Positions 1 through 18,683 of a stretch of 44,015 nt of DNA are shown one piece after another. Location: assembly GCA_030427205.1 (NCBI GenBank), contig JAUHXC010000011.1, positions 1-44,015 on the forward strand. Direction: 5' to 3'. Both the position numbers and the translations under genes were made by a program. The notes beneath the pieces are model-generated. The model made no database searches and was not told the DNA's origin. It saw only the letters and a list, made by a program, of their open reading frames with translations. The DNA comes from a bacterium. GTDB lineage: Bacteria > Myxococcota_A > Bradymonadia > UBA7976 > UBA1532. Within the stretch, counting starts at the first letter, position 1, and the number at the start of each line of letters is the position of its first letter.

Positions 1-945
1 GGCGGTGTTGATCAACCGAGCGGGCTCGTTGGTCCCGTCGGCGGCGATCTCGGCGAGTGCTGTCCCAGGCGGGGGTCCCGTCGACGGCGTTCGCCATGAA
101 GTCACTTCGCTCGATGGTCCCGTCGGCGGCGATCCGGGTGAGCGCTGTCCCAGACGGGGGTCCCGTCGACGGCGTTCGCCATGAAGTCACTTCGCTCGAT
201 GGTCCCGTCGGCGGCGATCTCGGCGAGCGCTGTCCCAGACGGGGGTCCCGTCGACGGCGTTCGCGATGAAGTGAGTTCGCTCGATGGTCCCGTCGGCGGC
301 GATCTCGGCGAGCGCTGTCCCAGGCGGGGGTCCCGTCGACGGCGGTTGTGATGCACTGCGTTCCCTCGGAGGCCCCGTCGGCGGCGATCCGGGCGAGCGC
401 TGTCCCAGGCGGGGGTCCCGTCGACGGCGTTCGCCATGAAGTGAGTTCGCTCGATGGTCCCGTCGGCGGCGATCCGGGCGAGTGCCGTCCCAGACGGGGG
501 TCCCGTCGACGGCGTTCGCCATGAAGTGAGTTCGCTCGATGGCCCCGTCGGCGGCGATCCGGGCGAGCGCTGTCCCAGACGGGGGTCCCGTCGACGGCGT
601 TCGCCATGAAGTCACTTCGCTCGATGGTCCCGTCGGCGGCGATCCGGGCGAGTGCCGTCCCAGACGGGGGTCCCGTCGACGGCGTTCGCGATGAAGTCAG
701 GTCGCTCGATGGTCCCGTCGGCGGCGATCCGGGCGAGCGCTGTCCCAGACGGGGGTCCCGTCGACGGCGTTCGCCATGAAGTCAGTTCGCTCGATGGTCC
801 CGTCGGCAGCGATCCGGCCGAGCGCCGTCCCAGGCGGGGGTCCCGTCGACGGCGGTTCTGATGAGCTGCGTTCCCTCGGAGGTCCCGTCGACGGCGATCT
901 GACGAAGCATCGTTCCGGAAGGGGGCCCCGCCGACGACGGCTCTC
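1..945. repeat. Tandem array of an 85-bp unit, about 11 copies (unit starts at 11, 96, 181, 266, 351, 436, 521, 606, 691, 776, 861; degenerate tail to ~972). Each unit carries the 10-bp perfect palindrome CCGTCGACGG overlapping the palindrome GACGGGggtCCCGTC, plus an internal ~42/43-bp half-repeat (ggtcccgtcgRcggcgWtc).
   Basis: Exact 85-bp periodicity of the atgaagtcacttcgctcgatgg motif read directly in the sequence. Units are ~90% identical with point variants. 85 is not a multiple of 3 and stops occur in all frames across units, so the array is non-coding. Confidence 0.9.
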
Positions 946-972
946 GTGAACTGCGTGCGCTCGCTGGTTCCA

Positions 973-2625
973 TCAGAGGTTGCGCCGCAGCACCGTCGGG
1001 CTCCAGATGTCTTTGCGGGTGGGCGTGAGCCAGGTCGCCGCGGGGAACGGTACGCCGGTGTGGTCGGCGACGTCCTTGGCGAACCTGGTGCAGTTGTACT
1101 CGAGCAGGCTGTAGTCCTTGGGGCTGCGGTACTGGTCGTAGGCGAACTTCAGGCCGGTCTTCCAGCGGTCGAAAGGCACCGGGACGCGCCGGCTGCGGGC
1201 CATGTCTTCGGTCGCGCTGTGGGTCTCGGGGTGCGAGACGCGGCCGGGCACCGCGTCGAAGGGGCTGTCTCCCGTGGCGCCGGGGTACAGGCCGAAGCTG
1301 CGCGCGTCGGCGGTCTGCCCGGTGCTCGTCTCGGTGTGGAAGCTGACCCAGGTGTGGCCCACGCCGGCCGCCATCAGCCCCGCGACGTAGTCCTCTTTGC
1401 GTTCCTTGCGGGCCCGCGGCGTATCGTCCGTGCCCGGCGGGGCCGGCTGCCAGTCCTCGGTGAACTCGTCGGCCACCTCTCGGGCCGCCTCGTCCTTGAT
1501 CTCGCCGCCCGTCTTACGGGTGAACCACTGCATCGCCTTCATGCGGGACCGCTTGATCGCGAAGGTGTCGTAGCGCTCATGCCCGGTGACGGCGTGGATG
1601 TTGAAGACATAGGTCATGTCGTCGGCGGCGTCTTCGGGCAGGGCGCGCACCGCGTCGCGCCAGGCATCGAACCGCGCGACCCGATCGGGCTTGCGCTGCA
1701 GCCGCCCGCGGTCCCAGTCGACGCTCTCGATCAGCGCGCGCGCCGCGGCGACCTTGCGCTGCTTGTCGCGGCCGCCGGCGCCCTCGTTGGCCGCAATGTA
1801 TTTGCGCGCCTGGGCCTCGATGGCGTTGTGCAGCACCTGCCGCCGGGTCGCCGCGTCGGCTGCGTCCCCGGCGATCGCGTGCCACTGTTCGACGAGGCCG
1901 AGCAGCGCTTTGTACTTGCCCCGCGACGACGGGGCGCCGCCGTAGGCCCGCATGTCGTCGACGGTGATCAGGCATTGCACCACCGGCGCGCTCGGCCGGC
2001 CCAACGTCGGCGGCCGGCCGGGCCGGCGCACCCCGGACTGCTGCACCGCGTGGGCGATCTCGTGGCGCAGCACCGCCTGCCCGCTGCGGGTCTCGACGGC
2101 GCAGCGGGCGGGGTCGAGCCAGATGGTCCGGCCGACGGTGGCCGCGGTGGCGCCGAGCCCGCGGGTGACCTCGGCGGCGCGGCGGTCGCTGTGCAGCCGG
2201 ATGCCGCTCAGGTCGACGCCGAAGCGGGGTTCGAGGCTGCGGCGCAGGTGCGCCGAGAGCGGGCGGCCACGCTCGAAGCCGCGGCGGATGGCGGCGCCGG
2301 TCTCGGCGTCGACGGGCGCGCCGCCACGGGGCCGCGGTCCGCGGGCCGGCGGCGGCGCGCGGCCGCCCGCGGGCTGAGGGCGGTCGGGCGCGGTGCGCTC
2401 GGCGGCGCGATGGGCCGCGTCTTCGAACCGATCGTCGGCCGGGCGTACGGTGAGGCCGGGGTCGGTGGCGGGGGTCGCGGCGGCCCGCATCCGCCGCAGC
2501 AGGGCGCCGACGCTGCGGTTGCCCATGCCGCGCCCGGCGTCATGCCCGGCGCCATGTTCGGCGTTGGCGCGCCGGGCGCCGGTCTCGCCCGGCCGCTTGG
2601 CGATGGCTCTGGTCGCGCGGGTCAT
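973..2625 (-). CDS. DUF4157 domain protein (zincin-like HExxH motif LRHEIAHAVQQ preceded by FGVDLSGIRLH...LGATAATVG) with a C-terminal region resembling a PPPDE/permuted-papain cysteine peptidase (H..SFG...P then YSLLEYNCTRF). No signal peptide or TM; effector or toxin-like.
   Basis: Full ORF with codon bias consistent with neighbours. DUF4157 signature block recognised (GxDLSxVRxH ... LGAxAxTxG ... HE[IL]AHVVQQ). Ordered His-before-Cys motifs at the C-terminus match the PPPDE/DeSI pattern. GGGGAG RBS 4 nt upstream of the ATG at 2625. Confidence 0.75.
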   Translation of the reverse strand: MTRATRAIAKRPGETGARRANAEHGAGHDAGRGMGNRSVGALLRRMRAAATPATDPGLTVRPADDRFEDAAHRAAERTAPDRPQPAGGRAPPPARGPRPRGGAPVDAETGAAIRRGFERGRPLSAHLRRSLEPRFGVDLSGIRLHSDRRAAEVTRGLGATAATVGRTIWLDPARCAVETRSGQAVLRHEIAHAVQQSGVRRPGRPPTLGRPSAPVVQCLITVDDMRAYGGAPSSRGKYKALLGLVEQWHAIAGDAADAATRRQVLHNAIEAQARKYIAANEGAGGRDKQRKVAAARALIESVDWDRGRLQRKPDRVARFDAWRDAVRALPEDAADDMTYVFNIHAVTGHERYDTFAIKRSRMKAMQWFTRKTGGEIKDEAAREVADEFTEDWQPAPPGTDDTPRARKERKEDYVAGLMAAGVGHTWVSFHTETSTGQTADARSFGLYPGATGDSPFDAVPGRVSHPETHSATEDMARSRRVPVPFDRWKTGLKFAYDQYRSPKDYSLLEYNCTRFAKDVADHTGVPFPAATWLTPTRKDIWSPTVLRRNL

Positions 2626-2705
2626 GGCTCTCCCCGAGGCGTCGGAACAGCGTAGACCAGCGCTACGCCGCTGAACAGGTGGCCCGCCAGGGCCGCCGGG
2701 GGCGT

Positions 2706-3980
2706 TCAGGGGGCGTCTTCGTCGTACGGCGCGGCCTCGGGCTGCGCCGGTATCGGATCGAGCGCGGGCGGGGCATCGGGGGTCGCGGGCGGGGCATCTT
2801 CGGGCGCGGTCGAGGGGTCGCCGGGCGCTGCGGGTGGCTCCGCGGGCGCCGCGGGCGGCGGTTCGGCCCGGTCGACGGCATTACGCAGCTGCTGCAGCGG
2901 GTCGACGGTGCGGGCGCGGAAGGCGGCGCGCAGCACCTCGGCGGACAAGCCGTCGGCCTGCTCGGCGTCGACGTGCGCCCCGTTGCCGGCGGCGGCGATG
3001 GCCCGATGCTGGGGGCGCACGAGGCGGTCGTGCTCGCGGGTGATGCCCCGGCGGCGGCCGTAGCCCGGCGGCGGGGTCGAGAGCATGTAGATCCGGCCGC
3101 CGGCGGCGGCGAAGCGGCGGGCGGTGTCGAGGCAGGGGCCCGCGCCGGGGTCGTCGGCGGCGGCGTCGCTGGTGGTGAGAATCAGCTTGATGGCGCCGGG
3201 TCGCCAGCGGGCCTTCTCCGCGGCGCCGAGGCCGCCGCAGAGCCACTCGGGGCGGTCGTCGTCGACGCCGGTGCTGGTGGCCTCGATGCCGGCGAGGAAG
3301 TCGGCGAGCTCGGCGGCGTCGGCGGTCAGCGGGTGCTGTTCGAGGCGCATGCCGGGGGCCTCGCGGCGGTCGCGGAAGACGATGGCGCCGACCCGGGCGG
3401 TGGGGCTGACGACGCGCAGGGTGTCGACGGTGGCCCGCAGGTTGCGCCGGGTGGCGTCGAGGCCGGCGGCCATGGACGCGGTGCCGTCGATGACGAGCAT
3501 GACGTCGACGGGGCGGGCGGTCAGCGGGTCGAGCTCGCCGAGCACGGCGCGCACGCTCTGGTCGAGTGCGGCGGCGCGTCCGCTGGCCTGCTGCGCCCGC
3601 TGCTCGCTGGTGGCCAGGGCGGCGGTGAGGGCCTCTTTGTCGGCGATGAGGCCGTCGCGCTCGGCGAGCAGGCGGTCGCGATCGGCCTGCAGGGCGGCGA
3701 GGGCCACGCTGGCTTCGCTGGCGGCGCCGCTGGCCCGGCGGGCGGCGGCCTCGGCGATCCGCTTGCGGTCGAGGGCGGCGATACGCGCCGATTCGGCTCG
3801 GGCCCGGGCCTCGGCCTCGGCCACCAGCGAGTCGCGGGCGTCGGTGAGCGAGGTGCGGATGTGCATCACCGCGACGAGGAAGAGCAGCAGCACGCAGCCG
3901 AGCGCGGTGGTCAGGATGTCGGCCAGCGAGGTGCCGAAGACCTCGGCGCCTCGGCGGCCGTCGCGGCGGCGGCGGCTCAT
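2706..3980 (-). CDS. MotB/ExbD/TolR-like single-TM protein (N-terminal Arg-rich cytoplasmic stretch, TM helix SLADILTTALGCVLLLFLV with the conserved Asp) followed by a periplasmic coiled coil, a von Willebrand factor A (vWA) domain (VMLVIDGTASM...) and a Pro/Ala-rich tail.
   Basis: The ORF track gives 2706..4670, but its first 230 aa are an Arg-rich out-of-frame read-through of the upstream gene. The true start is the ATG at 3980 (MSRRRRDG...), forming an ATGA overlap with the upstream stop at 3977-3979. The TM motif AD[IF][LM]T[TA]A resembles E. coli MotB YADFMTAMMAFF (recalled from memory) around the proton-conducting Asp32. The vWA block DGTASM plus downstream hydrophobic strands is typical. 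Confidence 0.7.
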   Translation of the reverse strand: MSRRRRDGRRGAEVFGTSLADILTTALGCVLLLFLVAVMHIRTSLTDARDSLVAEAEARARAESARIAALDRKRIAEAAARRASGAASEASVALAALQADRDRLLAERDGLIADKEALTAALATSEQRAQQASGRAAALDQSVRAVLGELDPLTARPVDVMLVIDGTASMAAGLDATRRNLRATVDTLRVVSPTARVGAIVFRDRREAPGMRLEQHPLTADAAELADFLAGIEATSTGVDDDRPEWLCGGLGAAEKARWRPGAIKLILTTSDAAADDPGAGPCLDTARRFAAAGGRIYMLSTPPPGYGRRRGITREHDRLVRPQHRAIAAAGNGAHVDAEQADGLSAEVLRAAFRARTVDPLQQLRNAVDRAEPPPAAPAEPPAAPGDPSTAPEDAPPATPDAPPALDPIPAQPEAAPYDEDAP

Positions 3981-5173
3981 CGCTCGGGCCCGAAGGGGCC
4001 GTCGTCGCTTTCGAGGTCGCCGTCGCCCATGGTGTAGGGGGTCGAGGTCTCGCCTTCGGGCAGGTCGAGCCGGGTCGAGGGGCCGACGGCGTAGCCCCGG
4101 GTCGGCTGGCGGGGGCGGGCCGGCGCGCCTTCGCGGCGCACGATGAGCGGCTGCTCGCCCTGGCGGCGCAGGGCGCCGAGCTCGTGCTGCAGCCGGGGCA
4201 GCGCGGCGCGGGTCTCGCGGGCGGCCTGCACCAGCTCGGTGACGGCGCCGTCGATGGGCGGCAGGGCTTCGAGGCGGCGGGCGACGGCGGCGAGCGCGGT
4301 GTCGATGGCCTGCATGCTGCGCTCGATGCGGGCGACGGTCTCGGCCTGGCGGTCGAGGGCGGCCTCGGCGGGGGTCTGCTGGGCGAGGCCGGCCAGGTCG
4401 AGGCGCTGCACGTAGCCGGCGCCCAGGTCGCGCTCGATGCGCTCGAGCAGGCGCTTGTCGCGGCCTTCGAGGCCCACTTCGAGCAGCTTGAGCGGCACGA
4501 CGAGCGCCAGGGCGAGCAGGGTGGTGTCGAAGGCGACCGCGAGCCCGGTCACCGCGGGGATGAGCGCGGCGAGGTCGTCGCCGACGCCGGTGATGACCCC
4601 GTCGAAGCTGGCGATGGCCCCGGCCATGCCGACGACGGTGCCCAGGAAGCCCGACAGCGGCAGCAGCCACATGGCGGCGGTGAGCGGGCGGTAGTCGTCC
4701 TCGACCCGGGCGTGGGCCCGGTCGACGGCCTGGGTGGCGGCTTCGAGCAGCTCGTCGCGGGTGGGGCGCTGGCTGCGGAAGTAGCTGAGGACGGCGTAGA
4801 GCACATCACCGGCGAGGGTGTCGCGCAGGCGGGTGAGCACCTCGAGGCGGCCGGGCAGCTCGCTGCGATCGACGGCGCCGTGCCGCAGCTCGCGGCAGGC
4901 GTCGAGGGCCCGGCGCTCGCCGGCGTGCACCACGAGGCGGCGCAGGATGTGGCCCACGCCCCAGAAGAAGAGGCCGACGGTCAGCGGCTGGCTGAAGCCG
5001 CGATCCCAAAGCAGCGTATGCAGCCGGGTCTCGGGGGCGAGCGCGTCGACGGCGAAGAAGAGCCCGGCGGTGCCGGCGACGGCGGCGAGCAGGGGGATGA
5101 AGCGGGTCCAGCCGCCGACGAGGGCGGCGGCGCCGCGGGAGGCGGTGAGTTGGCGGGGGTGGGCGATGTCCAT
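3977..5173 (-). CDS. MotA/TolQ/ExbB proton-channel family protein with 4 TM helices and a ~150-aa C-terminal cytoplasmic coiled-coil tail.
   Basis: Signature LLPLSGFLGTVVGMAGAIASF...AALIPAVTGLAVAFDTTLLALALVVPLKLL matches the MotA/ExbB TM3-TM4 channel motif. The ORF track start is 5233. The ATG at 5173 (MDIAHP) has a GGGAG RBS 6 nt upstream and is preferred. The stop overlaps the downstream start (ATGA). Confidence 0.75.
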   Translation of the reverse strand: MDIAHPRQLTASRGAAALVGGWTRFIPLLAAVAGTAGLFFAVDALAPETRLHTLLWDRGFSQPLTVGLFFWGVGHILRRLVVHAGERRALDACRELRHGAVDRSELPGRLEVLTRLRDTLAGDVLYAVLSYFRSQRPTRDELLEAATQAVDRAHARVEDDYRPLTAAMWLLPLSGFLGTVVGMAGAIASFDGVITGVGDDLAALIPAVTGLAVAFDTTLLALALVVPLKLLEVGLEGRDKRLLERIERDLGAGYVQRLDLAGLAQQTPAEAALDRQAETVARIERSMQAIDTALAAVARRLEALPPIDGAVTELVQAARETRAALPRLQHELGALRRQGEQPLIVRREGAPARPRQPTRGYAVGPSTRLDLPEGETSTPYTMGDGDLESDDGPFGPER

Positions 5174-16976: not shown

Positions 16977-18683
16977 CTACTCCTTCTCGTAGGGCGCCCA
17001 GTAGGGGGCGTGGTTGCCGCCCTGGGTGTTCTGGCCCGGCATCCAGAACGCGGGGGCCGACGGGTCGCCATCCTCGGCGAGCGGGTCGATGCCGGTGACC
17101 CAGATCTGGGGCCGCGGCTCGGTGTCCTGGTCGAGCGGGTCGTTGGGCACCACCCGGCCATAGGCCCGCAGGCTGGTGAACGCCAGCCAGACCCGGCCCG
17201 CGCCCTGGATCGGCGCCCACTTGGGCCAGCTGTTGCCCATCAGCTCGGCCATGTTGGCCCGGTCGAGCCGGATCGGCGGCATGGCCCCCTCGGCGTCGAT
17301 GAGCCACAGGTCGAGGTTGGGGTTGATGCGCTCGCCGTCCATGCCGCCGTTGCCCGGGTCGTCGCCGACGCCGTTGTAGGCGATCCAGCGGCCGTCGGGC
17401 GAGAAGGCCGGCCGATCCCAGCTGCGGTCGTCGGTGCGCTCGACGAGCAGCTCGGGCGGCGTGGGCCACGCGCCGCGGTCCATCGTCCACTTGCCGATGC
17501 TGCCCAGCGGGATCTGCTCGGCGACGGGCACCGCGAAGCCGCCGATGACGCCGACGATGTGCTCGCCCTGCCACGACCAGTCGGGCGCACCGGCCGCGGG
17601 CAGGTCGGGGTGCGAGGGCAGCGGGTCGACCGGGTCTTCGCCGTCGGGCGGCCCGTTGCCCGGCAGCGCGTCGAGCAGCGCCCCGGTCTCGGCGGAGCTG
17701 AGCTGCAGCCGGCCGCCCGAGGTGGCCACGAGCTGGATGCCGTCGGGCGCGAAGCTGGGGAAGACGCCGATCCGCTCGCCGCCCGGATAGAACGGCACGC
17801 TCGGCGCGTCGATGGCCACCGCCTCGAGGTTGCCGGCGGGGAATCCGAAGGAGCGGGTATACGCCATGCGGGTGCCGTCGCGGCTGACGGCGTGGCAGCC
17901 GTAGCAGAAGGCGCCCGGCACCCGGTCGGGGGTCAGGAAGCGCTCGGCCTCGCGGTCGTTGACCGGCAGCCGGGCGATGCCGCCCATGCCCGTATCGAAG
18001 TAGTACACCGCGCCCTTGAGCTGGCCTTCGTCGATCTCGAGGGGCAGCACCGTCGCCTCGCAGACCGGCTGGTCGGGGCCGCGGTACTCGCGCACGGTGA
18101 CCTCGAGCAGGCCGTCGTCGGTGCGCGCGGCGGCCTCCTTGAGCAGCGTCCAGGGGGCCTCGGCGGGCACGAGGTGGTCGGCGGCGGTATACCAGCGCAC
18201 GCTGGCGTCGGCGGTCTGCATCACCACCTCGAAGAGCAGGTCCCCCTGGCGGCGGCCCGGATCCCACTGGAAGTCGACGCCTTCGATGTTGCGCGGCAGC
18301 GCGGTGTTCGCCTCGGGGTAGATCACCACCGGCGGGTCGGCGCACTCGCCCTCGGGGGCCGCGGCGAAGCGCTCGGGCGCGTCTTCGGGGCCGTCGACGA
18401 TCACCACGTCGCCCATGGGCACCGGCGTCGGCACCGCGTCGGGGTCGTCGACCTCGGCGTCGAGCTGGGGCAGGCCCTCGTCGCCCGCAAGCGGCGCGCC
18501 GTCGAGCAGGGTCAGCATCATGTCGGCCTCGGCGTCGACGATGATCGCGGCGTCGAGCGAGGCGCCGGCGTCGTCGGCGGCGGCCTCGTCGTCACAGCCG
18601 ACGAGCACGAGGGGCAGAGCGCACAGCGCGGTGAACAGGGTGGTGGACAGCGCGGTGGACAGGGCAGCGCGGGCGGGGGCCAT
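16977..18683 (-). CDS. Lipoprotein with TolB-like PD40/WD40-like beta-propeller repeats (PAFSPDGRWIAYN, FAPDGIQLV). Contains a single CYGCH (CxxCH) motif.
   Basis: Signal plus lipobox MAPARAALSTALSTTLFTALCALPLVLVGC. PD40 repeat signatures present. The heme-binding significance of CxxCH is uncertain. Confidence 0.6.
   Translation of the reverse strand: MAPARAALSTALSTTLFTALCALPLVLVGCDDEAAADDAGASLDAAIIVDAEADMMLTLLDGAPLAGDEGLPQLDAEVDDPDAVPTPVPMGDVVIVDGPEDAPERFAAAPEGECADPPVVIYPEANTALPRNIEGVDFQWDPGRRQGDLLFEVVMQTADASVRWYTAADHLVPAEAPWTLLKEAAARTDDGLLEVTVREYRGPDQPVCEATVLPLEIDEGQLKGAVYYFDTGMGGIARLPVNDREAERFLTPDRVPGAFCYGCHAVSRDGTRMAYTRSFGFPAGNLEAVAIDAPSVPFYPGGERIGVFPSFAPDGIQLVATSGGRLQLSSAETGALLDALPGNGPPDGEDPVDPLPSHPDLPAAGAPDWSWQGEHIVGVIGGFAVPVAEQIPLGSIGKWTMDRGAWPTPPELLVERTDDRSWDRPAFSPDGRWIAYNGVGDDPGNGGMDGERINPNLDLWLIDAEGAMPPIRLDRANMAELMGNSWPKWAPIQGAGRVWLAFTSLRAYGRVVPNDPLDQDTEPRPQIWVTGIDPLAEDGDPSAPAFWMPGQNTQGGNHAPYWAPYEKE

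What the first reader, a model, noticed from the sequence alone, without database searches (positions are those of the whole stretch)
1..972. Eleven tandem 85-bp palindrome-rich repeats at the 3' side of the DUF4157 gene
Periodicity is exactly 85 bp and units are ~90% identical. Each unit has nested palindromes (CCGTCGACGG, GACGGGggtCCCGTC) and an internal half-repeat, so every unit can form stable hairpins. The period is not divisible by 3 and variant units carry stops, so the array is non-coding. It is not a CRISPR array because there are no unique spacers. The position at the contig edge suggests it interrupts assemblies. It could be a REP/BIME-like structured minisatellite, a transcriptional insulator or terminator array for the convergent effector gene, or a recombination hotspot.
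Basis: seen in the sequence. Interest (0 to 1): 0.55.

Follow-up and report, generated by a model that had tools for sequence, protein, structure and literature searches.

The report
Non-coding 85-bp minisatellite beside toxin gene
A real, rare array of about eleven and a half 85-base repeats starts on the stop codon of an intact toxin-like gene in an uncultured high-GC bacterium; it is not translated, and what is conserved is a short palindromic DNA motif kept at a fixed spacing of about four helical turns, so it is most likely a row of protein-recognition sites and not the hairpin or terminator array first proposed.

Summary
Window 1-978 is an indel-free tandem array with an 85-bp period (TRF score 1372, 10.3 copies plus degenerate edge copies). 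Its last degenerate unit overlaps the TGA of an intact 550-aa DUF4157/eCIS_core gene (973-2625, minus strand). Each unit is a 43-bp and a 42-bp half, and both halves carry the core GGYCCCGTCGRC around the palindrome CCGTCGRCGG.

On the minus strand each unit reads as 28 codons with gene-like codon usage plus one extra base, a "ghost frame". Translation is unlikely. Substitutions are spread evenly over codon positions, half the units carry TGA in a second frame, and no in-frame protein family was found among 1.84 billion representative proteins.

The only relative is P0123, an NCBI ORF that runs through about 14 units of 85 nt and then about 7 inverted units. Across all unit types the cores and their spacing stay fixed while one linker has fallen to random identity. 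The constraint is therefore on nucleotides and spacing.

Hairpins are not conserved and mostly fold no better than shuffled sequence. There are no U-tract terminators, no unique spacers, and no dispersed copies.

Best reading: a phased array of protein-recognition sites, sopC/iteron-like in architecture and MIRU-like in position (confidence 0.37). Main rival: a functionless VNTR.

The parts
1..978 (.). Tandem array of about 11.5 units of 85 bp. Each unit is a 43-bp half plus a 42-bp half. There are no indels. The array runs off the left end of the window.
   Evidence: TRF; in-register listing and identity per unit; core matches against shuffles.
31..46 (+). Core 1, GGTCCCGTCGGCGGCG, containing the imperfect palindrome CCGTCGGCGG. 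It recurs every 85 bp: 31, 116, 201 ... 796, 881.
   Evidence: Columns 1-12 of alignment A2 are invariant except columns 3 and 11.
71..89 (+). Core 2, GGGGGTCCCGTCGACGGCG, made of a G5 run plus the perfect palindrome CCGTCGACGG. It recurs every 85 bp (71 ... 836, degenerate at 921), always 43 bp after core 1 and 42 bp before the next core 1.
   Evidence: Columns 41-59 of A2 are almost invariant.
65..837 (-). Nine complete ghost-frame units. Each is 28 codons, (S/P)GTALARIAADGTIERSDFMANAVDGTP, followed by one extra base at the C5 run, so the frame is lost by +1 in every unit.
   Evidence: Codon-usage log-likelihood ratio is +6.7 to +12.3 per unit; for the consensus unit it is +8.0 in this frame against -16 and -19 in the other two frames.
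279..363 (.). B-type variant unit, with linker 2 reading GGTTGTGATGCACTGCGTTCCCTCGGA. A second B-type unit lies at 789-873. This is the type shared with the related array inside P0123.
874..978 (.). Degenerate edge units: 68% identity at 874-958, then a ~20-nt remnant. The 42/43 spacing is kept. The last remnant supplies the gene's final codons and its stop.
   Evidence: sequence.
973..2625 (-). Intact DUF4157/eCIS_core gene of 550 aa. The C-terminal region has a weak papain-like/PPPDE signature. It is colinear to within 4-6 residues of its end with its only homologue, P0002.
   Evidence: GC3 frame plot.
782..973 (-). 63-aa ORF whose ATG (971-973) overlaps the gene's TGA (973-975) as TGATG. 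It runs into the array and stops at a frame-B TGA. Its first 46 codons are not coding-like (LLR -3).
   Evidence: The exact product is not on record.

Best explanation
The array is a non-coding minisatellite. The feature under selection is a roughly 16-bp double-stranded DNA core built around the 10-bp palindrome CCGTCGRCGG. At least 22 copies sit in direct orientation, alternately 43 and 42 bp apart, which is about four helical turns, so all copies face the same side of the helix.

Most likely reading (inferred, not shown): the cores are recognition sites for a sequence-specific, probably dimeric, DNA-binding protein. That protein could be a host or element factor assembling a nucleoprotein platform, as on sopC or iterons, or the enzyme that propagates the repeat. 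The linkers are free to drift.

The array would grow, shrink and homogenise by replication slippage or unequal recombination. This is also inferred, from the 92-99% identity of central units against 68% at the edge.

The gene-like 28-codon frame on the minus strand is read as a relic of the founder unit's origin in coding DNA, not as a frame that is translated.
For: Shown:
1. All 13 unit types align without a single gap: ten full window units, the edge unit, and the two unit consensuses reconstructed from P0123. 36 of 85 columns are invariant and they cluster in the two cores.
2. Linker 2 of the A-type unit and of P0123 array 2 match at 8 of 26 positions, which is the random level, yet both are exactly 26 nt. 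The 43/42 spacing also survives in the 68%-identical edge unit.
3. Inside the cores, 10 of 12 third-codon positions of the ghost frame are invariant, including the disfavoured Gly codon GGG. The constraint is therefore on nucleotides, not on amino acids.
4. Substitutions fall 9:6:7 over codon positions among the window's units. They fall 6:4:5 between the window's edge unit and the P0123 unit (hand count).
5. RNA structure does not explain the conservation. There are no compensatory pairs, and single-unit z-scores run from -1.96 to +1.2.
6. The related arrays keep the 85-nt period. P0123 has an 85-aa period because its ORF reads all three frames in turn, and an 85-nt cyclic sequence reproduces it.

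Context:
7. The architecture matches F-plasmid sopC: 12 direct 43-bp repeats, each with a 16-bp inverted repeat bound by SopB (PMC3177203 abstract).
8. A related MAG carries two unrelated arrays with a 42-bp period and palindromic cores.
Against: - No binding protein is identified. The visible flank encodes a DUF4157 toxin-like protein, a VWA-like protein and a MotA/ExbB-like protein. No ParA/ParB, Rep or obvious HTH gene was seen. The other flank is missing.
- The family is tiny: this array plus two arrays on one other NCBI contig, which may even belong to the same genome.
- The P0123 unit sequences are reconstructions from a three-frame translation, not read DNA.
- Length conservation could partly reflect inheritance from one founder, since indels are rarer than substitutions.
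- Core 1 is an imperfect palindrome in nearly all units.
Confidence: 0.37

Rival explanations
1. A functionless or selfish VNTR. A founder 85-bp dimer was amplified by slippage or unequal crossing-over. The cores look conserved only because the arrays are young or were exchanged horizontally, and the array has no role for the cell.
For: - Central units are 92-99% identical and edge units are degenerate, the usual picture of concerted evolution.
- The family is extremely rare in public data.
- The gene plus array is absent from the syntenic site of an approximately 80%-identical relative, so it is dispensable there.
- No partner gene is identified.
Against: - Substitution rate is strongly uneven along the unit: invariant cores against a linker at random identity.
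- Exact length is retained in every type despite that divergence.
- A ~42-bp period recurs in unrelated arrays of a related genome.
Confidence: 0.3
2. An RNA-level or single-strand element. This would be a structured 3'-UTR that stabilises or terminates the toxin mRNA in the way REP elements do, or an antisense plus-strand structured RNA or ssDNA hairpin array.
For: - The array starts at the gene's stop codon, so read-through transcription is likely.
- Three A-type units fold better than shuffles as plus-strand RNA (z -4.9), with several G.U pairs that would be C.A mismatches on the other strand.
- RNAalifold draws a core1:core2 stem kept in all 13 sequences.
Against: - The sense (minus) strand is not unusually structured: z -1.1 for three units and -0.39 for one.
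- Units of the related arrays fold no better than shuffles on either strand, z -0.13 to +1.2.
- There are 0 compensatory pairs.
- There is no stem plus U-tract and no Rfam match.
- The multi-unit z-score is inflated because repeats of a palindrome pair with each other.
Confidence: 0.12
3. A coding element. Either it is the decayed 5' part of a repeat-protein gene downstream of the toxin (for example an immunity-type or beta-propeller-like protein), or it is a live gene read by serial +1 frameshifting at ACC-CCC-N in every unit.
For: - Frame A has gene-like codon usage: LLR +6.7 to +12.3 per unit, against a mean of 12.1 for true coding windows. Only 0.6% of off-frame windows exceed +3.
- Frame A has no stop in any unit.
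- An ATG overlaps the upstream TGA.
- The +1 site sits at the same CCC-N in all unit types.
- There is a weak resemblance to delta-60/DUF5122-type motifs, FMxNAVDG.
Against: - There is no purifying selection in frame A, and third positions in the cores are as invariant as first and second positions.
- No in-frame 84-nt relative was found in a 5.8-billion-protein word search or a full HMMER scan of 1.84 billion representatives.
- The 43-nt half is already present in the oldest edge unit and in every array type, so there is no trace of an in-frame ancestor.
- Ten or more consecutive frameshifts would need near-100% efficiency each, and no stimulator such as a rare codon, stop codon or SD-like element follows or precedes the site (sequence).
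- The delta-60 hits are a short motif multiplied by many repeats. The Pfam hit had no individually significant stretch.
- The ATG-proximal 46 codons are not coding-like, LLR -3.
Confidence: 0.1
4. A minisatellite phase switch. Because 85 leaves a remainder of 1 when divided by 3, gain or loss of one unit shifts the frame of the ORF that starts at the coupled ATG. This would change where it terminates and whether ribosomes arrive in frame at whatever lies beyond the array.
For: - The TGATG overlap couples an ORF to the toxin gene.
- TGA occurs only in frame B and only in some units, so ORF length depends on register.
- The unit length is strictly conserved at 3n+1 in all arrays.
Against: - The downstream flank is unknown.
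- Stops occur in all three registers of this array, so no register reads through.
- The start of the ORF is not coding-like.
- No copy-number polymorphism data are available.
Confidence: 0.05
5. An assembly or sequencing artefact, such as a collapsed or looped repeat or a systematic homopolymer error that turns an 84-nt unit into 85.
For: The array sits at the window edge. An independent assembly stops 145 nt into it. At k=55, 67 k-mers are repeated.
Against: - The first two C5 runs are reproduced by the independent k-mer assembly.
- No k-mer of 99 or more is repeated.
- A related array with the same 85-nt period lies inside a 111-kb contig with unique sequence on both sides.
Confidence: 0.03

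Closest known systems
MIRU (mycobacterial interspersed repetitive units), the intercistronic minisatellites of Mycobacterium
   Same: - Direct tandem units in the 40-100 bp range, in a high-GC bacterium.
- Internal GC-rich inverted repeats.
- The terminal repeat overlaps the adjacent gene, and a small ORF is coupled to its stop codon (here TGATG).
- The unit length need not be a multiple of 3.
MIRU features are taken from PMC3184786.
   Different: - No demonstrated dispersal to tens of loci. One locus here and one double locus on another contig.
- A different lineage.
- Sequence similarity to MIRU was not tested.
- Co-transcription with a downstream gene is unknown because the far flank is missing.
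- The 43/42 two-core substructure is not a described MIRU feature (my knowledge).
F-plasmid sopC centromere and iteron-type binding-site arrays
   Same: Direct repeats about 43 bp apart, each carrying an inverted repeat. The motif is conserved, the linkers are variable and the phasing is strict. sopC is 12 x 43 bp with a 16-bp inverted repeat bound by SopB (PMC3177203 abstract).
   Different: - No parA/parB or rep gene in the visible flank.
- The palindrome is 10 bp.
- Two alternating unit types give an 85-bp super-period.
- The upstream neighbour is a toxin-like gene.
- Binding is untested.
REP/BIME elements
   Same: GC-rich palindromic motif clustered immediately 3' of a gene, with a comparable super-period of roughly 80-90 bp for a pair of motifs (my knowledge).
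   Different: - Cores are in direct orientation, not alternating.
- No dispersed copies.
- The stem-loop is neither conserved nor better than shuffles.
- No RAYT gene was seen.
Protein-coding tandem repeats of the delta-60/DUF5122 beta-propeller type
   Same: The ghost frame contains a DGT...F.ANAVDG motif that resembles the conserved part of these repeats.
   Different: - The real repeats are about 60 aa and in frame. Here the unit is 28 codons plus 1 nt.
- There is no selection at the protein level.
- The similarity is a short motif whose score is multiplied by repetition.

Membership tests
MIRU-like intercistronic minisatellite | Direct tandem units of about 40-100 bp | tested here: met
   85-bp period, 10.3 or more copies, 0% indels.
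MIRU-like intercistronic minisatellite | Repeat ends overlap the stop/start codons of adjacent genes, with a small coupled ORF | tested here: met
   The edge repeat supplies the TGA at 973-975. The ATG at 971-973 overlaps it as TGATG and opens a 63-aa ORF. Only the proximal end is visible.
MIRU-like intercistronic minisatellite | Lies between co-oriented genes of one operon and is co-transcribed | not testable with these tools
   The far flank lies beyond window position 1 and could not be fetched. No expression data.
MIRU-like intercistronic minisatellite | Dispersed at tens of loci per genome | tested here: inconclusive
   No further copy in the other 43 kb. Two arrays on one other NCBI contig, genome unknown. 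None in the GTDB representative, JGI metagenome or IMG/VR scans.
REP/BIME | Conserved imperfect palindrome that forms a stable stem-loop | tested here: not met
   The GACGGG/CCCGTC stem is lost in the edge unit and in the P0123 arrays. Unit z-scores are -1.96 to +1.2. There are 0 compensatory pairs.
REP/BIME | Successive REPs in alternating orientation within a cluster | tested here: not met
   All 21 core matches are on the same strand.
REP/BIME | Hundreds of dispersed copies and a cognate RAYT transposase | tested here: inconclusive
   No dispersed copy in 44 kb. The whole genome is not available and no RAYT was looked for beyond the window's large ORFs.
CRISPR array | Constant repeats separated by unique spacers | tested here: not met
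   The two linkers alternate and recur in every unit.
sopC/iteron-type binding-site array | Direct repeats at a fixed helical phase, each with an inverted-repeat motif | tested here: met
   Cores 43 and 42 bp apart in every unit type, each with CCGTCGRCGG.
sopC/iteron-type binding-site array | Adjacent gene for the cognate binding protein (ParB/SopB, Rep) | tested here: not met
   The visible flank holds DUF4157, VWA-like and MotA/ExbB-like genes. The other flank is not testable.
sopC/iteron-type binding-site array | Specific protein binding to the motif | not testable with these tools
   Needs EMSA, DAP-seq or ChIP.
Intrinsic terminator array | GC-rich stem followed by a U-tract | tested here: not met
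   0 terminator-like sites in 1-3000 on either strand.
Protein-coding tandem repeat (delta-60/DUF5122-like) | Unit length divisible by 3 and one open frame through the array | tested here: not met
   Period 85. Every minus-strand register is interrupted. Frame A is lost by +1 in each unit.
Protein-coding tandem repeat (delta-60/DUF5122-like) | Significant match to the family model | tested here: inconclusive
   PF17164 scores 34.6 bits (cut-off 27) only on an artificial frame-corrected concatenate, with no individually significant stretch. Hits in the representative library are 8-20-aa motifs repeated 5-11 times.
Protein-coding tandem repeat (delta-60/DUF5122-like) | Purifying selection in the reading frame | tested here: not met
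   Variable sites fall 9:6:7 over codon positions, and 6:4:5 against the P0123 unit. Third positions in the cores are invariant.
Programmed +1 ribosomal frameshift site | Slippery P-site codon plus a stimulator (slow A-site codon, stop, or upstream SD-like element) | tested here: inconclusive
   CCC-N is conserved at the shift point. However, the 0-frame next codons (GTC, GCC, TTC) are common, and no SD-like element is seen by reading the sequence.

The most novel reading that the evidence does not exclude
The strict 3n+1 unit length is itself functional. Under this reading the array is a minisatellite phase switch: gain or loss of a single 85-bp unit rotates the reading frame of the ORF translationally coupled to the toxin gene (TGATG) through three states. 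That would reset where it terminates (TGA exists only in one frame of some units) and whether ribosomes reach a downstream cistron in frame. It would be phase variation driven by a large structured repeat instead of a 1-7-nt microsatellite. The still more radical version, serial +1 frameshifting at ACC-CCC-N to make a 28-aa-repeat protein, is nearly excluded by the neutral substitution pattern.
Probability: 0.05. Interest if true: 0.7.

Novelty: new member of a known kind. Interest (0 to 1): 0.4.

Why it matters
If the cores are protein-recognition sites, this would be a new chromosomal, toxin-adjacent example of a phased binding-site array in an uncultured high-GC lineage, with a testable motif (GGYCCCGTCGRC at 43/42 bp).

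There are also practical lessons:
- In 73%-GC genomes a non-coding minisatellite can carry a convincing reading frame and be annotated as a large hypothetical protein. P0123 is 596 aa and reads three frames and then the reverse complement.
- Unit lengths not divisible by 3 do not by themselves reveal what is conserved.
- Such arrays break short-read assemblies next to cargo genes.

As it stands, this is a well-characterised curiosity of unknown function, not a surprise for specialists.

Tried and rejected
Searches for relatives of the repeat:
- A frame-corrected conceptual repeat protein found no hit in the 5.8-billion-protein word search.
- A loose degenerate DNA pattern that tolerates 84-88-nt units matched 10 times in the window. 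It matched 0 times in GTDB representative genomes, JGI metagenomes and IMG/VR.
- blastn against plasmids found nothing.
- A second metagenome scan with paired cores found only L007, an unrelated 45-bp array that shares GTCGAGGGGACCCCC by design of the pattern.
- A viral scan for paired cores gave 21 loci, each with one isolated pair (spacing a multiple of 3 in most), and no arrays, so these are chance matches.

Attempts to see the far flank all failed:
- Exact look-ups of array ORFs.
- The orthologue route through the neighbour of the syntenic relative.
- Direct look-up of P0123.
- tblastn of P0123's unique ends against the window and L004 gave only noise.

Readings considered and dropped:
- The only homologue of the DUF4157 protein (P0002, 37% identity) has an oxidoreductase gene downstream and no array.
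- Reading the array as an 85-aa repeat through all three frames. Frames B and C have LLR -16 and -19, and 5 of 10 units carry TGA in frame B.
- Homology between the window unit and the 42-bp arrays of L004. Alignment scores are at the shuffle level.
- Rfam gave nothing meaningful.
Full report

Yes. Tandem Repeats Finder reports one dominant array at 24-899: period 85, 10.3 copies, 91% matches, no indels, score 1372. It also reports a 42-bp sub-period at its right edge.

Printed in register, the repeat runs from window position 1 to about 978. Ungapped identity to the consensus is 0.86-0.99 for ten units and 0.68 for the unit at 874-958. The first ~20 nt of the unit at 959 are still recognisable. 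Random 85-mers from the window average 0.30 and never exceed 0.48.

The 19-nt core matches 21 times with up to 3 mismatches, against 0.28 expected from shuffles. Successive matches are alternately 43 and 42 bp apart.

An independent Logan assembly of run ERR3428543 (L001, 2,344 bp) reproduces the upstream gene and the first 145 nt of the array, including two C5 runs, and then ends inside the array. The longest exact repeat within the array is 80 bp and no k-mer of 99 or more recurs. The order of units is therefore resolvable with ordinary reads, but beyond the first 145 nt it rests on one assembly.

Whether position 1 is a true contig end cannot be checked. The gene's NCBI contig is 275,942 bp, and DNA to the left of the window could not be retrieved.

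**2. Surroundings**

The window is 73% GC. The GC3 frame plot shows a clear minus-strand gene at 973-2625 and no stable phase inside the array.

That gene encodes a 550-aa protein with a Pfam eCIS_core/DUF4157 domain (E 8.8e-22, residues 122-198). It also has a weak PPPDE/papain-like signature near its C-terminus. It is colinear with its only detectable homologue, P0002 (37% identity), to within 4-6 residues of both C-termini, so it is intact.

The array does not lie beyond the gene. Its last degenerate repeat supplies the final codons and the TGA at 973-975. An ATG at 971-973 overlaps that stop as TGATG and opens a 63-aa ORF (782-973) running into the array.

P0002's locus has an oxidoreductase gene downstream and no array.

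A related MAG contig (L004, JAUHYW010000030) is 78-84% identical in nucleotide sequence and syntenic with window 12664-2850. The match then stops, so the DUF4157 gene and the array are absent from that position.

The gene content includes Ser/Thr kinases, TPR proteins and a 2,423-aa lamin-tail-domain protein. More distant homologues of a neighbour's gene carry Myxococcota labels. Together these suggest an uncultured Myxococcota-like organism; this is an inference.

**3. A ghost reading frame**

On the minus strand, the same direction as the toxin gene, every unit reads as 28 codons: (S/P)GTALARIAADGTIERSDFMANAVDGTP. This is two 14-codon halves, each starting DGT. One extra base follows at the run ACC-CCC-N, so the frame is lost by +1 in each unit.

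I built a codon-usage log-likelihood ratio (LLR) trained on the window's own genes. Frame A scores +6.7 to +12.3 per unit, and +8.0 for the consensus unit. True 28-codon coding windows average 12.1 (sd 7.4). Off-frame windows average -27, and only 0.6% of them exceed +3. The other two frames of the consensus unit score -16 and -19. Frame A therefore looks like coding DNA of this genome.

Everything else argues against translation:
- Variable sites among the window's units fall 9:6:7 over codon positions.
- Five of ten units carry TGA in frame B, and each of the three registers through the array is interrupted.
- The first 46 codons after the coupled ATG are not coding-like, with LLR -3.
- A frame-corrected conceptual protein finds nothing in the 5.8-billion-protein word search.
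- A profile of ten real frame-A translations (A1) was searched with HMMER against 1.84 billion representatives. It finds no in-frame family.
- The Pfam DUF5122 hit is 34.6 bits but has no individually significant stretch. The library hits P0124-P0136 are 8-20-residue motifs such as FMTNAVDG or AADGTxxGSEF, multiplied by 5-11 repeats. I do not accept them as homology.

**4. The one true relative**

The strong hit is P0123: 596 aa, E 3e-46, from an NCBI contig of 111,306 bp. It has an 85-residue period. The motif GPP(S/P)G recurs at residues 75, 160, 245 and 330, because the ORF reads successive 85-nt units in frames A, B and C in turn.

After about 14 units the ORF continues through about 7 units whose translation matches the window's plus-strand frames (GVPSTA..., GPVDGV..., RRGSRRRR). 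That is an inverted array of the same family. Unique sequence lies at both ends of the ORF.

A cyclic Viterbi reconstruction finds an 85-nt sequence for each array whose triple translation reproduces the consensus. The cost is 43 mismatched residue instances for array 1 and 15 for array 2.

The 85-nt period is therefore conserved at a second locus. Whether that locus is in the same genome or another is unknown. P0123 itself is best read as an annotation artefact of high-GC DNA.

**5. What is conserved**

I placed ten window units, the edge unit and the two reconstructed units in register. MAFFT introduces no gap. 36 of 85 columns are invariant, and they cluster in two cores:
- Core 1: GG(T/C)CCCGTCG(G)C.
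- Core 2: GGGGG(T/C)CCC(G)(T)CGACG(G)CG.

Linker 1 of P0123 array 2 is still about 60% identical to the window's (hand count). Linker 2 is at 8 of 26, the random level, yet has exactly the same length.

Mapping frame-A codons onto the cores, 10 of 12 third positions are invariant across all types. This includes GGG, which is a disfavoured Gly codon here with LLR -0.51. The window's edge unit and the P0123 array 1 unit differ at 6:4:5 first:second:third positions (hand count).

The constraint is therefore on nucleotides in the cores and on their spacing, not on an encoded peptide.

**6. Structure is not the explanation**

Three A-type units fold better than shuffles as plus-strand RNA (z -4.9), but not as the sense minus strand (z -1.1). 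For single units the picture is weaker:
- A-type unit: z -1.96 on the plus strand and -0.39 on the minus strand.
- P0123 array 1 unit: z +1.2 and +0.75.
- P0123 array 2 unit: z -0.13 and +0.82.

RNAalifold pairs core 1 with core 2, which any direct repeat of a palindrome allows. It finds no pair with a compensatory change.

No stem plus U-tract exists in 1-3000, and Rfam gives nothing.

**7. Most likely mechanism**

Shown:
- A non-coding array with an 85 (43+42) bp period.
- Nucleotide-level conservation of a palindromic core.
- Strict spacing despite linker turnover.
- Direct orientation of all cores.

Inferred:
- The cores are recognition sites for a sequence-specific, probably dimeric, protein acting on duplex DNA.
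- At 42.5 bp, about four helical turns, all sites face one side of the helix, as in F-plasmid sopC. sopC is 12 x 43 bp, each repeat with a 16-bp inverted repeat bound by SopB (PMC3177203).
- The array expands, contracts and homogenises by slippage or unequal recombination: central units are 92-99% identical and the edge unit 68%.
- The founder unit was probably captured from coding DNA, which would explain the ghost frame.

I put this at 0.37. It lacks a candidate protein, because the visible flank has none, and it rests on three arrays, two of them reconstructed.

The main rival is a functionless VNTR (0.30). It explains the rarity and the absence from the syntenic relative, but not the uneven substitution rate or the length conservation.

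Other rivals:
- An RNA or terminator role: 0.12.
- A coding relic or serial +1 frameshifting: 0.10. The live-recoding share is very small.
- A copy-number phase switch: 0.05.
- An artefact: 0.03.

**8. Comparison with known kinds**

In position and form the array most resembles MIRUs. These are 40-100-bp direct repeats in a high-GC genome with GC-rich internal inverted repeats, ends that overlap the adjacent genes, and small ORFs (PMC3184786). Dispersal and co-transcription, which define that family, could not be shown.

In architecture it resembles sopC or iteron arrays, but no partner gene is visible.

It fails two REP/BIME criteria, orientation and a conserved stem-loop. Dispersal could be checked only within this 44-kb window, where no further copy was seen. 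It also fails the CRISPR criterion of unique spacers.

I found no report of such arrays in myxobacteria in the searchable literature.

I file it as a new member of a known kind, the bacterial intergenic minisatellite with a palindromic core. Interest is moderate at 0.4. It is real, rare and oddly constrained, but its function is unknown and nothing in it overturns expectation.

Noticed in passing
L004:17998-18363 and L004:18434-18665: The related MAG contig carries two adjacent intergenic tandem arrays with a 42-bp period (84- and 126-bp super-periods). Both are built on the palindromic core GGTCGGACCCG and start about 30 nt after the stop of a plus-strand ORF (17294-17968). They show no detectable sequence similarity to the window's unit. 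The same ~42-bp phasing therefore recurs in unrelated arrays of this lineage.
   Followed up: partly
window:2626-2850, and L004:12306-12440: Synteny with the relative L004 ends at window ~2850, at the 3' end of the VWA-like gene. In L004 a di-haem cytochrome c peroxidase gene follows directly. The DUF4157 gene plus the array therefore looks like a lineage-specific insertion or replacement.
   Followed up: partly
P0123 (NCBI protein of 596 aa, on a contig of 111,306 bp; DNA not retrievable): This annotated protein is almost certainly not a real gene product. It reads about 14 units of 85 nt in all three frames and then about 7 units of an inverted array. This is an example of high-GC minisatellites being called as large ORFs. 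It also shows two arrays of the family meeting in opposite orientation.
   Followed up: yes
L007:534-1488 (Ga0065711_1093991): A 45-bp tandem array of 20 copies and 85% matches, containing GGTCGAGGGGACCCCC. It was found only because it satisfies the paired-core pattern. It is in frame (15 aa, TGKVEGTPGLVPIPS) in long ORFs on both strands and is unrelated to the finding.
   Followed up: partly
window:5426-12697 (minus strand): A 2,423-aa protein with five lamin-tail-domain (LTD) matches (E 7e-68). Extensive internal DNA self-similarity is visible as many off-diagonal blastn matches to the orthologue in L004.
   Followed up: no
window:2758-2828: A 21-bp tandem repeat of 3.4 copies, TCGGGCGCGGGCGGGGCATCG. 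It lies inside the long minus-strand ORF 2706-4670, which carries weak VWA matches, and just beyond the point where synteny with L004 ends. Its coding status was not checked.
   Followed up: no
window:973-1130 (C-terminus of the DUF4157 protein, residues ~500-550): The motif LLEYNCTRFAKDV gives a weak PPPDE/Peptidase_C97 match (E 0.18) and is conserved in P0002 as NCTTFTRDI. This suggests a papain-like cysteine peptidase effector domain.
   Followed up: no
window:1-30: The leftmost partial unit, GGCGGTGTTGATCAACCGAGCGG, is a third and more divergent linker-2 variant (frame A ...GTNEPARLINTA). Edge units are usually the most diverged, so the far end of the array may lie close to the window's left end.
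   Followed up: no
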